Of a stretch of DNA of 64,000 bases, positions 48,501 to 51,500 are shown in pieces (the stretch's first letter is position 1; every line of letters begins with the position of its first letter). A program made the position numbers. The stretch lies in assembly GCF_056712565.1 (NCBI RefSeq), contig NZ_CM160072.1. One strand, written 5' to 3'.

Positions 48501-51500
48501 TCACCCGAGTAAAGACGCTTGTCCGTTTCACTGCCTTGCGGGCGAGCGCCTTTTAGATCAGAAGTCAACGTTACACGGTCGGCATCTGTCGTAGCACTTC
48601 CCCCTTCCGAATAGAGCCACGGAATGGTCCCCTGGAAAATATTGGTTTCACCGCTGTCGACCCAGGCGCTGTCTTCAGCCAGCGCCACAGGTGCCACACA
48701 ATAACCTGCCAGTGCCAGCGCTAATGCGATCCGGGTCAGACCGCGTCTTTTATCCTGCTTCATTGATGCTCTCCTTAATGAACCTTCAGCGACTGGCCGA
48801 CTGGCCTTACGCCAATCTTATTTTTTGGTATACAGCACGCGTAAACCGTATCCCTGCAAGCCATCTCCCGCTTGTGCGCCATAGGTTTGCGCCGCTTCAC
48901 GGTTAGTGGCCGGAATCACAATGTCCTCATTGGAAGTGTTCGCCTGTGCACCCACTTCACCATTGATGCTCTTGCCGGTAAATTCCCACTTGTAGTCGTA
49001 CTGCACCATCTCTTCGTCAGTCAGTTTTTCGACCTGCTGGAAGACACCGTCTTTATTGTTGTCGCGCCACAAAACAAATCGATAAGTGTTGTTGAGCGGC
49101 AACGGTTCTTTATCTTTACCTATCAGGTTGCTGGGTTTAGCCGCCCCCACACGATAGATAAAAGCATTTAGCCCACCAATTTCTGCCCCGAGGAAAGTGA
49201 CATCCACATAGTTACTGTCATCGTAGGGCGCGGCTTTTGCTTTCCAGCGATAGGTGCCGGGTAAGGTACTGGAGAGGGTGACAGTGCCCTTTTCTTTATC
49301 TTGTTTAGCGATAAAAACGCAGGGGTTGTCGGTCGAGCAAGGCTTGTTGGTTAACGTCACTCGTTTGTCCTGCGCGTCGTAAAGCTGCGGCGTGAGGTTA
49401 TCTTCCGGCAGCGCATCGCCATTGCGGTCGGTGTTATCGCCAAAGCTGTCGGTTACATCGAGATCCATCACCACACCATCAACGCCATCTGCCTGAGCGC
49501 TGGCTTCGTGGCTGTGGTTGTTCTCTTCTGGCACGTTCGCGATGTTATTAACAATCAACTCTATTTTACGGTCCTGCTGAACGGTGATTTCCACCACGCC
49601 AGAGTTCTGCCGATTGCCCTTTTCATCTTCCAGCGCCAGACGTACTCGCCAGGTATTGAGTTTTTCTTGTTCGGCTTGATCGGAACTGTACTGCCAGGCG
49701 GGCAGCACCAGGTTCCAGTGGTTATTGTTACCCTCTGTCAGGGTATTCTCTTTGATAACCGGCATCACCAGCGTGCGGGCAGCATTGTTTTTCGCCTGCC
49801 AGGAGGCAGCAACGATTTTGTAGTGATGGTTAATGAGCGCGTTAATGGTCCATTTACATTTTTCCAGCCCGATAGCTTCTTCAGGCGTATCTTTAATCAC
49901 GCACTCGGGATGTTCATTCGTGACGTCGGCTTTCAGCCACAAAGTGACATAGAGGGGATCTTTCTCTTTGTATTCCAGAACAATAAAGTTGTTACGTTCA
50001 ACAAAGTCATGACGGCTACCCATGAGCGAGTGAGCCGCGCTCACTTTGTCAGGATCAAGCTGGTCTTTGAGCGGGACGCCAAACTGGTAGTTCAGCGTTG
50101 CGTTAACAGAAAGATCGGTATTATCGCCAGTGCCAGCTTTGAAATCTGTACCGACAACAATGAGCGGAACGGGCTGGTATTTCACACCCAGCGTGACAGC
50201 GAAGGGATCTTTCTCCAGACTATCGGTACCAAAAAGCGCGACTTCATTCCCATAATATTGTTCGAAGACAATTTTTCCGCCAAGCTGCGGGTAAGCGGGT
50301 AGCCAGGCTTCAGCGCGAATATCCCAGCCGCGCGCAGGGCGTTCTTCATAAAAGTCGAAATCTTCAGAGTCTTTCCAGTCAGAAAGTGGGTGATAATAGT
50401 TGCCTGAGAATTTTAAATAATCCGTCCAGGCTTCGGCGCCTAAACCTAAACGGCGATGTCCACGGGTAAAGTCATAATCATAAAATATATTTCCACCCAA
50501 TAGATATTTATCAAAATTATACCTTACCCCAAGGCCAATATTCCCGATCGTACGATCTTCTTTTCGTTGCGCAGAAAATTGGCTGAAATAAACAGTGGTT
50601 TGATTATCGTACCAGGGAACAAAATAATCGATGGAACTGCCATCCAGATCGCCGCCCTGACCAATGGAGAGGTTCGAACGGACCTTACCGTAGGGAGAGA
50701 GTGTGTCTTCAATATAAGATTGTGCGGTTGAGGTGATTTGACTTTGCAGATAGCTTCTGGCCTGAGATTTCAGCGCCTCAGGGGTCAAGTTTTCAAACCC
50801 TTGCGTGGCGGAGTTGATGACGTAATCGGCTCCGCGCTCTTTCAGCGATTTACCCTTGTTGGTTTGTTCATCCTGTTGTGCTGCCTGGCTACCTAAATCA
50901 GGTAACGATTCGTTTTGCTTAACATTTATCTCTGGCGCCGCGAAAGCAGCACCAGAGATAAATGTTAGAATAATACAGCGTTTCCATCGCAGCATGCACT
51001 TTCCCTGTGACAATGATACAGTCAAAAATAAGCTTTAATATTGTATCCCTGATTATTCAGAAAGGCATGTCATAAAGAGTAAATATATTCTTAATTATTT
51101 AAATTAGTGATTTCACTCAAATACATTAGTTATTCCACTAATAACAGATTGTTTATCATTCATATATTAAATATAAATGATAAAACAATACATTCACATG
51201 ATATTAAGCAATAATAAATTCAACGCGTTTTTTAGATATTAAACCGTGCCCATGTTGGCAGAAATAATCCACAGCACCACAAGCTTTTAACACTTGTAAC
51301 GCCTGATGACACTCAGGGCAAAGTGCCTGGACGGTAAAGTTTTTGTCGCAAGTTGCACAGTGAGCAGTCTCGCCATTGCGTTCGAGAGGGGTTTTGCAGG
51401 TTGGACAGTTGAGTGCCATAAATACTCCTCGCGTGTTATTCGGCTTCCCTCTCCGTGTGGAAAGGGAAACCAGATAAGTGATTACTTACTTTTCTTGATA

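What the first reader, a model, noticed from the sequence alone, without database searches (positions are those of the whole stretch)
51026..51203. Strongly AT-rich upstream region of the SinH-like gene
About 180 bp of almost pure A/T with curved-DNA-like phasing precede the inverse autotransporter gene. This is typical of H-NS-silenced horizontally acquired adhesin promoters.
Basis: inference. Interest (0 to 1): 0.25.

Follow-up and report, generated by a model that had tools for sequence, protein, structure and literature searches.

The report
AT-rich promoter spacer upstream of sinH
The stretch is the 208-bp, very AT-rich spacer that carries the promoter of the E. coli adhesin gene sinH; it is probably a short H-NS/LeuO-controlled promoter, an ordinary kind of region, but it is not curved DNA and the locus does not look recently imported.

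Summary
The AT-richness is real. Positions 51026-51203 are 21% GC, the lowest of any 178-bp stretch in the 64-kb window. It is not "almost pure A/T" (38 G/C bases). The claimed curved-DNA phasing is absent: there is no 10-11 bp AA/TT periodicity, A-tracts are depleted, and wedge-model curvature is average.

The stretch is most of the 208-bp spacer (50996-51203, minus strand) between yfgJ and sinH in a B2-type ExPEC chromosome. In 17 orthologous spacers from five genera, two short islands stay conserved in otherwise scrambled AT-rich DNA:
- a -10 hexamer (TACAAT, 51040-51045) with no -35;
- an upstream direct-repeat block (51079-97), 33-34 bp above the -10.

Matches to the LeuO core palindrome are concentrated in these spacers. 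The window has two 11/14 matches.

Published work shows that iatB (= E. coli sinH) is silent in laboratory media and is switched on by LeuO, an H-NS antagonist. H-NS silencing is therefore plausible (about 0.55). It has not been tested in any paper I could find, and here it could only form a short patch. The island genes have native GC, and the yfgJ-sinH arrangement is conserved across genera, which argues against recent acquisition. This is an ordinary regulatory region of low interest.

The parts
50996..51203 (-). yfgJ-sinH intergenic spacer (208 bp, 24% GC). The finding's 51026-51203 is its upstream 178 bp.
   Evidence: ORFs and RefSeq annotation; composition. Orthologous spacers are 205-345 nt and 21-34% GC in 17 genomes from 5 genera.
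48818..50995 (-). sinH (= iatB) coding sequence, 725 aa, ATG at 50995
   Evidence: NCBIfam NF033423 inverse_SinH, 1472 bits, full length. The first ~300 nt of the CDS, the part covered by the query, are 100% identical to annotated SinH genes in E. coli genomes.
51002..51006 (-). Shine-Dalgarno AGGGA, 6 nt before the ATG
   Evidence: Read from the sequence. GGGA/GGA is retained in most orthologs.
51040..51045 (-). Candidate sigma-70 -10 hexamer TACAAT with no recognisable -35. The inferred transcription start is near 51033.
   Evidence: TAnAAT in 16 of 17 orthologs and TAAACT in P. vendiensis (TATAAT in Salmonella and Citrobacter). Mean pairwise identity is 0.77 against 0.35 in the flanking spacer. 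The consensus scan finds no two-hexamer promoter on this strand. The start site is inferred, not mapped.
51079..51097 (-). Conserved upstream block A. The consensus is TTTTTAGGAATATATTTAGG, a direct repeat TTTAGG-N6-TTTAGG. The window reads TAATTAAGAATATATTTAC, with the otherwise invariant last G replaced by C. It sits 33 nt upstream of the -10, about -47 to -65.
   Evidence: Mean pairwise identity 0.82 across 15 non-redundant orthologs. The spacing to the -10 is fixed at 33-34 nt. The pattern occurs once per locus and only at this position. The binding factor is unknown.
51156..51174 (.). Distal LeuO-core-like palindrome, ATATTTA-ATATA-TGAATGA on the minus strand. It matches 11 of 14 positions of ATATTCA-N5-TGAATAT and lies inside the inverted repeat 51152-51184.
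   Evidence: The core was derived from the K-12 cas and leuO spacers, following the description in PMC6698644. The aligned position scores 14/14 in Citrobacter MGH106 and S-77 and 12/14 in four other orthologs. Of the 11 non-training hits of 12/14 or better in 308 kb of fetched loci, 8 lie in sinH spacers. The window match alone is not significant (p about 0.11-0.13).
51038..51056 (.). Proximal LeuO-core-like match (11/14) overlapping the -10
   Evidence: The same position scores 13/14 in C. portucalensis. This is weak evidence on its own.
51152..51184 (-). AT-only inverted repeat (14-nt arms, 93% complementary), 20 nt after the yfgJ stop. It can form an AU hairpin in yfgJ read-through RNA.
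   Evidence: the repeat finder pair I3. RNA fold -19 kcal/mol, z = -2.5. It is not a canonical terminator: no GC stem and no U-run, and the terminator scan found none.
51100..51139 (.). Two 18-nt direct repeats 22 bp apart (TAAATTAGTGATTTCACT and TACATTAGTTATTCCACT). Significance unknown.
   Evidence: the repeat finder family D2. They are not conserved outside the window's allele class.
51204..51419 (-). yfgJ-type zinc-ribbon gene (71 aa), whose stop codon bounds the spacer
   Evidence: ORF, RefSeq annotation, Pfam Zn_ribbon_6 in orthologs.

Best explanation
The region is the promoter and regulatory spacer of the sinH-sinI(-ratA) adhesin cluster. Transcription most likely starts about 38 nt before the ATG, from a conserved -10 hexamer (TACAAT) that has no -35. 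The promoter is therefore intrinsically weak and depends on an activator. A conserved direct-repeat block at about -47 to -65 is the likely site of a still unidentified activator. The surrounding 24%-GC, TpA-rich DNA is a good substrate for a short H-NS (or H-NS/StpA) patch that would keep the promoter off in laboratory conditions. LeuO, shown genetically to switch on iatB (= sinH), probably binds the palindromes related to its core site and displaces or blocks H-NS. Shown here or in the literature: the composition, the conserved elements, synteny, silence in the laboratory, and LeuO activation. Inferred: the transcription start, H-NS occupancy, direct LeuO binding, and the identity of the block A factor.
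For: - **Composition:** the lowest-GC stretch in the window, with high TpA density.
- **Conservation:** block A (identity 0.82) and the -10 (0.77) are conserved with fixed 33-34 nt spacing in 17 spacers from 5 genera, while the flanking spacer is at 0.35-0.42.
- **No -35:** no two-hexamer sigma-70 promoter is found on the sinH strand.
- **LeuO-like sites:** palindromes are concentrated in sinH spacers, including perfect 14/14 sites.
- **Silence and LeuO activation:** iatB is silent in LB and M9 medium and is activated through leuO (Goh 2019, PMC6714894). The strain used there, SMS-3-5, carries the same allele class, with an identical -10 region.
- **LeuO and H-NS overlap:** 78% of E. coli LeuO targets are co-regulated by H-NS (PMC6698644).
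- **Host induction:** sinH is reported as upregulated in human urinary tract infection (cited in PMC9937491).
- **Precedent:** another E. coli inverse autotransporter, FdeC, is H-NS-regulated (title of Easton 2014).
- **Short patches:** short H-NS regions behave like promoter-proximal repressors, and 40% of their target genes change in an hns deletion mutant (PMC3064808).
Against: - No H-NS ChIP, footprint or hns-mutant data for sinH were found.
- The Goh Tn5 screen gave no hns insertions although about 2.4 were expected (P of zero = 0.09).
- Matches to the Lang high-affinity H-NS motif are no more frequent than composition predicts (2 weak hits against 2.4 in shuffles).
- The AT-rich tract is only about 300 bp and is flanked by 49-53% GC genes. 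Long silencing filaments are unlikely, and short patches are described as "gentler modulators".
- The window's LeuO-like matches are only 11/14 (p about 0.1).
- Block A is partly degenerate in the window and in SMS-3-5.
- The LeuO core I used was deduced from two K-12 sites, not taken from a published matrix.
Confidence: 0.55

Rival explanations
1. The promoter is limited by its activator and H-NS plays no meaningful part. It is silent simply because it lacks a -35 and needs a specific activator at block A, with LeuO acting as an ordinary LysR-type activator. The AT-richness is just the usual composition of enterobacterial regulatory spacers.
For: - There is no -35.
- Block A is strongly conserved at the position typical of a class I activator site.
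- No hns hits came out of the Tn5 screen (expectation).
- H-NS motif matches are not enriched beyond composition.
- The AT tract is short and the flanking genes have native GC.
Against: - At 21-24% GC the spacer is far more AT-rich than anything else in the 64 kb, and it is equally extreme in every ortholog although its sequence is scrambled. This suggests that the composition itself is maintained.
- Most E. coli LeuO targets are co-regulated by H-NS.
Confidence: 0.28
2. The spacer acts mainly as an insulator or termination zone. The AU hairpin, or Rho-dependent termination in the AT-rich untranslated stretch, would stop der-yfgJ transcripts from reading into sinH. This role could coexist with the promoter role.
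For: - All the genes are co-directional, and the spacer begins at the yfgJ stop codon.
- A hairpin sits 20 nt after that stop (-19 kcal/mol, z = -2.5).
- sinH is silent although it lies downstream of the der-yfgJ genes on the same strand. That der is well expressed is my own assumption.
Against: - There is no canonical intrinsic terminator: the hairpin is AT-only and has no U-run.
- The palindrome coincides with the conserved LeuO-like site, which explains it better.
- Termination was not tested.
Confidence: 0.12
3. The spacer is intrinsically curved, A-tract-phased DNA that recruits H-NS through its shape, and it marks the scar of a recent island insertion.
For: - The spacer is AT-rich.
- The cluster is absent from K-12, where xseA and yfgJ overlap by 4 bp.
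- The spacer is found in only 1747 of 5426 complete E. coli genomes.
Against: - There is no helical periodicity, A-tracts are depleted, and modelled curvature is average.
- Cluster genes are 49-52% GC, and no tRNA is present. I did not specifically search for integrases or flanking direct repeats.
- The gene order and spacer length are the same in five genera, which fits ancient presence with losses.
Confidence: 0.04

Closest known systems
iatB promoter of E. coli SMS-3-5 (Goh et al. 2019, mSphere, PMC6714894)
   Same: It is the same locus and the same spacer allele class, with an identical -10 region and 5' UTR. It was reported silent in laboratory media and activated by LeuO overexpression.
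   Different: That study mapped no promoter, no LeuO site and no H-NS effect. The window strain is a B2-type ExPEC whose distal spacer half differs by several substitutions.
H-NS-repressed, LeuO-activated promoters such as Pcas and leuO in E. coli K-12 (Fragel et al. 2019, PMC6698644)
   Same: They share an AT-rich upstream region, LeuO-dependent activation, and palindromes related to ATATTCA-N5-TGAATAT.
   Different: H-NS binding and LeuO footprints are demonstrated at cas and leuO but not here. The window's matches are only 11/14.
fdeC (eaeH) inverse-autotransporter promoter, regulated by H-NS and temperature (Easton et al. 2014, cited)
   Same: It belongs to an E. coli inverse-autotransporter adhesin that is poorly expressed in the laboratory.
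   Different: It is a different gene and locus. H-NS dependence is shown for fdeC and untested for sinH. I did not read that paper.
Salmonella CS54 island sinH (sivH) upstream region
   Same: It is orthologous. It has the same block A (TTTTTAGGAATATATTTAGG), a perfect TATAAT 33 nt downstream, and the same yfgJ-sinH-sinI-ratA order.
   Different: The Salmonella spacer is longer (333-345 nt) and carries a GC-rich, REP-like insert next to yfgJ. No LeuO-like site of 12/14 or better was seen there.

Membership tests
H-NS-silenced promoter | Local AT content well above the genome average | tested here: met
   The spacer is 24% GC, and the 500 bp around it are 65% AT, the maximum in the window. The published mean for top H-NS sites is 61.4% AT.
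H-NS-silenced promoter | H-NS occupancy in vivo or in vitro (ChIP or footprint) | not testable with these tools
   No dataset or paper covering sinH was found.
H-NS-silenced promoter | Derepression in hns (or hns stpA) mutants | not testable with these tools
   The only indirect data are from the Goh Tn5 screen of about 30,000 mutants, which gave 12 leuO-driving hits and no hns hit. About 2.4 hns hits were expected, so P of zero is 0.09.
H-NS-silenced promoter | High-affinity nucleation motif (tCGATAAATT; Lang 2007) | tested here: inconclusive
   A matrix built from the 11 published sites gives 2 weak hits (7.0 and 7.7 bits), against 2.4 +/- 1.6 in composition shuffles.
H-NS-silenced promoter | Intrinsic curvature or phased A-tracts (the classical in vitro preference) | tested here: not met
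   This is not a strict requirement, because binding tracks AT content better than curvature.
H-NS-silenced promoter | Relief by a known counter-silencer | tested here: met
   From the literature, for the same allele class: LeuO overexpression raises the iatB transcript.
Xenogeneic (recently acquired, AT-rich) island | Gene bodies with atypically low GC over kilobases | tested here: not met
   ratA-like 50-52%, sinI 52% and sinH 49% GC, against 51% for the window.
Xenogeneic (recently acquired, AT-rich) island | Patchy distribution together with mobility signatures (tRNA site, integrase, flanking repeats) | tested here: inconclusive
   The distribution is patchy: 1747 of 5426 E. coli genomes carry the spacer, and K-12 lacks it. 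There is no tRNA. The yfgJ-sinH arrangement is the same in 5 genera, although in the C. freundii group der is not next to yfgJ. Integrases and flanking repeats were not specifically searched for.
LeuO-regulated promoter | LeuO-dependent expression | tested here: met
   From the literature, for a closely related allele.
LeuO-regulated promoter | LeuO core palindrome ATATTCA-N5-TGAATAT | tested here: inconclusive
   The window has two 11/14 matches (p about 0.11-0.13). Orthologs score 12-14/14 at the aligned site, and such hits are strongly enriched in sinH spacers. The core was deduced from two K-12 sites.
Sigma-70 promoter | -10 and -35 hexamers with 16-18 bp spacing | tested here: not met
   The -10 is conserved (TACAAT), but no acceptable -35 exists and the scan finds no such site on the sinH strand. 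This is consistent with an activator-dependent promoter.

The most novel reading that the evidence does not exclude
The invariant direct repeat TTTAGG-N6-TTTAGG, held 33-34 bp upstream of the -10 in five genera, is the binding site of a dedicated and so far unidentified activator. A response-regulator-type or RcsB-partner-type protein is one possibility: its left half fits the RcsB half-site TN(G/A)GA only as I recall that motif. This factor, rather than H-NS or LeuO, would carry the host signal that turns on SinH. In the window's B2 lineage and in SMS-3-5 the site is partly eroded.
Probability: 0.3. Interest if true: 0.4.

Novelty: new member of a known kind. Interest (0 to 1): 0.15.

Why it matters
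SinH is a leading ExPEC vaccine antigen and a fitness factor in urinary tract infection. It is silent in laboratory culture, so knowing what switches its promoter on matters for antigen expression and for vaccine coverage. The spacer fits the familiar pattern of an AT-rich, LeuO-responsive and probably H-NS-dampened adhesin promoter, so it teaches nothing new in principle. The one useful addition here is a concrete promoter map: the -10 hexamer, a deeply conserved upstream block and candidate LeuO sites. This map makes the regulation directly testable. It also shows that the cluster's regulatory architecture is ancient rather than recently imported.

Tried and rejected
- **Helical periodicity and curvature:** tested and not found.
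- **Rfam scan of 50500-51700:** only sub-threshold microRNA noise, so no known sRNA or riboswitch.
- **Intrinsic terminator scan:** none found. The AU hairpin after yfgJ is not terminator-like.
- **Small ORFs in the spacer:** none on the sinH strand, and only short plus-strand ORFs that I did not examine further.
- **Phase-variation features:**
  - I saw no GATC site on reading the spacer.
  - No convincing flanking inverted repeats for an invertible element; the best is a 19-nt pair at 74%.
  - The repeat finder omits runs of 1-3-base units, so simple repeats were not checked.
- **Lang H-NS motif matrix:** no enrichment beyond composition.
- **Block A elsewhere:** no other copy in the window or outside the sinH spacers in the fetched loci.
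- **Block A against transcription-factor motifs I recall** (RcsAB box, GAD box, PmrA, PhoP, CpxR, Lrp, SlyA, CRP, IHF, sigma-E): only half-site resemblances (RcsB, SlyA), so I make no claim.
- **Literature:**
  - No paper testing H-NS at sinH or iatB was found.
  - Shea 2022 (PMC8853676) is not held.
  - The supplements of Lucchini 2006 and Fragel 2019 are not held.
- **tRNA at the island borders:** none.
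Full report
**Where the window comes from and what surrounds the finding**

The stretch 50700-51500 is 100% identical to several E. coli chromosomes, including HS13-1, SF-468 and an APEC O2:K1:H7 strain. 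All genes around the finding lie on the minus strand:
- a ratA-like adhesin gene, split here into 39615-42170 and 42287-47665;
- sinI (47786-48763);
- sinH (48818-50995), which scores 1472 bits against the NCBIfam SinH equivalog;
- the AT-rich spacer;
- a yfgJ-type zinc-ribbon gene (51204-51419);
- der, bamB, yfgM, hisS, ispG and rodZ.

RefSeq places the sinH start at the ATG at 50995. The true intergenic spacer is therefore 50996-51203 (208 bp). It is both the 5' region of sinH and the 3' flank of yfgJ.

**Checking the observation**

The AT-richness is real and extreme for this window.
- The 178 bp are 21.3% GC against 51.1% overall. Only 0.07% of equal-sized windows are as low, and there is a single sub-30% GC segment in the 64 kb, at 50951-51309.
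- The 500 bp centred on the spacer are 65% AT, the maximum in the window.

"Almost pure A/T" overstates it. There are 38 G/C bases, and the longest pure A/T run is 17 bp.

The "curved-DNA-like phasing" is not there.
- AA/TT periodicity at 10-11.5 bp does not exceed dinucleotide shuffles (p=0.46).
- Runs of four or more A or T cover 4.3% of the spacer, against 11.4% in composition-matched shuffles.
- Two wedge models rate the fragment as average. About half of all 208-bp fragments are at least as curved, and about 80% of its own shuffles are more curved. The model angles were recalled from memory, so only the relative result counts.
- The enriched feature is the flexible TpA step: 13.5% against 4.5% for the window.

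**What the spacer contains**

I collected 17 orthologous yfgJ-sinH spacers. They come from E. coli (three alleles), E. whittamii, E. albertii, Escherichia sp. E1V33, three Salmonella lineages, four Citrobacter, three Pseudocitrobacter and Superficieibacter. All are 205-345 nt and 21-34% GC, while sinH itself is 47-55% GC. Most of the spacer is scrambled between genera, with pairwise identity of 0.35-0.42. Two short islands stand out.
- **Block A.** The consensus is TTTTTAGGAATATATTTAGG, a direct repeat TTTAGG-N6-TTTAGG, with mean identity 0.82.
- **The -10 hexamer.** It lies 33-34 nt downstream of block A and has mean identity 0.77. It reads TAnAAT in 16 of the 17 orthologs and TAAACT in P. 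vendiensis. The hexamer is TATAAT in Salmonella and Citrobacter and TACAAT in E. coli. It sits 41-62 nt before the start codon in most orthologs (28-33 nt in Pseudocitrobacter).

In the window, the hexamer is at 51040-51045 and block A at 51079-51097 (minus strand). The otherwise invariant final G of block A is a C here. There is no usable -35, and the consensus scan finds no two-hexamer promoter on the sinH strand. I read this as an activator-dependent sigma-70 promoter with block A at about -47 to -65. The transcription start near 51033 is inferred, not mapped. Block A occurs nowhere else in the window or in the fetched loci. I could not identify its binding protein.

**LeuO**

Goh et al. 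2019 (PMC6714894) studied this gene under the name iatB.
- The protein was undetectable in LB or M9 medium at 28-42 C.
- Of about 30,000 Tn5 mutants of an iatB::lacZ strain, the 12 up-mutants all carried insertions oriented to drive leuO.
- LeuO overexpression raised the iatB transcript.

Their strain, SMS-3-5, has the same spacer allele class as the window, with an identical -10 region and 5' UTR.

Fragel et al. 2019 (PMC6698644) describe a 19-bp LeuO core palindrome (7-5-7) shared by the cas and leuO promoters, but the held text does not give the sequence. I deduced it from the K-12 spacers. It is ATATTCA-TACTG-TGAATAT at cas and ATATTGA-TTTGG-TGAATAT at leuO.

Scanning with this core gave the following.
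- A positionally conserved site lies about 180 nt before the sinH ATG. It scores:
  - 14/14 in Citrobacter MGH106 and S-77;
  - 12/14 in E. coli E69, E. whittamii, E1V33 and a Pseudocitrobacter genome;
  - 11/14 in the window (51156-51174, inside the inverted repeat 51152-51184).
- A second match overlaps the -10. It scores 11/14 in the window (51038-56) and 13/14 in C. portucalensis.
- Across 308 kb of fetched loci there are 14 hits of 12/14 or better. Three are the training sites and 8 lie in sinH spacers.
- The window's own matches are individually unremarkable (p about 0.1). The family-wide enrichment is strong.

**H-NS**

Evidence for H-NS:
- Composition is the best genome-wide predictor of H-NS binding, better than curvature (Lucchini 2006).
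- This spacer exceeds the mean AT content of top ChIP sites.
- 78% of E. coli LeuO targets are co-regulated by H-NS.
- sinH is silent in the laboratory but reported as induced in human urinary tract infection.

Evidence against H-NS, or missing:
- I found no experiment testing H-NS at sinH.
- The Tn5 screen recovered no hns insertion where about 2.4 were expected (P = 0.09).
- Matches to the high-affinity H-NS motif are at the chance level for this composition.
- The AT-rich tract is only about 300 bp long and lies between genes of normal GC. Any H-NS complex would be of the "short" class, which acts as a gentler, promoter-proximal modulator (Kahramanoglou 2011).

I put H-NS involvement at roughly 0.55. 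The main rival, at about 0.28, is a plainly activator-limited promoter.

**Is it horizontally acquired?**

The cluster is absent from K-12, where xseA and yfgJ overlap by 4 bp. The spacer is present in 1747 of 5426 complete E. coli genomes. Against recent acquisition:
- the cluster genes are 49-52% GC;
- there is no tRNA;
- the same yfgJ-spacer-sinH-sinI-ratA arrangement, with nearly constant spacer length, occurs in five genera.

This fits an old locus with repeated loss better than a recent AT-rich import. The AT-richness is confined to the regulatory spacer.

**Other readings**

- No known RNA family matches the region.
- There is no canonical terminator. The AU hairpin after yfgJ coincides with the LeuO-like palindrome.
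- There are no ORFs on the sinH strand of the spacer.
- No phase-variation signatures were seen.

**Verdict**

This is an ordinary regulatory region of a known gene whose LeuO control is already published. The only additions are a conserved promoter map and an unidentified upstream element.

Noticed in passing
window 39615-47665 (minus strand), break near 42170-42290: The ratA-like giant adhesin gene is a single 2683-aa ORF in strain HS13-1 but is split here into 1792-aa and 851-aa ORFs. The reading frame shifts after '...NGAIGPI*', so it looks like a frameshift pseudogene. Over the region the window is 99.79% identical to HS13-1, with 28 gap positions.
   Followed up: partly
window 51204-51419 (yfgJ) and 51420-51481: The N-terminal half of YfgJ and the yfgJ-der spacer are strongly diverged from K-12 (63% aa identity overall). 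They resemble the yfgJ alleles of sinH-carrying E. coli SMS-3-5 and Salmonella (motif LERNG.TAHC.TC.KDF). In the C. freundii group, yfgJ sits next to sinH with der not adjacent (an MFS transporter gene and, in two of the three genomes, an oxidoreductase gene lie upstream). yfgJ may therefore belong to the sinH module rather than to the core backbone.
   Followed up: partly
window 48818-48850 region (3' end of sinH): SinH is 725 aa here but 734 aa in the otherwise 99.8%-identical HS13-1. The 27-nt length difference matches the published 725-743 aa length variation in the passenger domain.
   Followed up: no
window 39547-39614: A REP-like palindromic element (…CCGGATAAGAGGCGCCAGCATCGCATCCGGCA…) lies between the xseA stop and the 3' end of the ratA-like gene. 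A similar GC-rich, REP-like insert sits next to yfgJ in the Salmonella sinH spacer (L024, L025).
   Followed up: no
window 56176-56194: The best LeuO-core-like match in the whole window (12/14, TTATTCTCTTTCTGAATAT) lies in the hisS-ispG intergenic region, not at sinH. It is probably chance.
   Followed up: no
E. coli genomes, spacer alleles: The sinH spacer falls into discrete allele classes across 1747 genomes: 316 at 99% identity or above, 693 at 95-99%, 7 at 90-95%, 662 at 80-90% and 69 at 60-80%. This looks far more divergent than I would expect for E. coli core DNA and suggests old allelic lineages or recombination at this locus.
   Followed up: no
L008 (Collinsella MAG contig) and L014 (Rhizobium wenxiniae contig): Short contigs assigned to unrelated taxa carry sinH at 95-96% identity to E. 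coli. They are almost certainly E. coli contamination in those assemblies.
   Followed up: no
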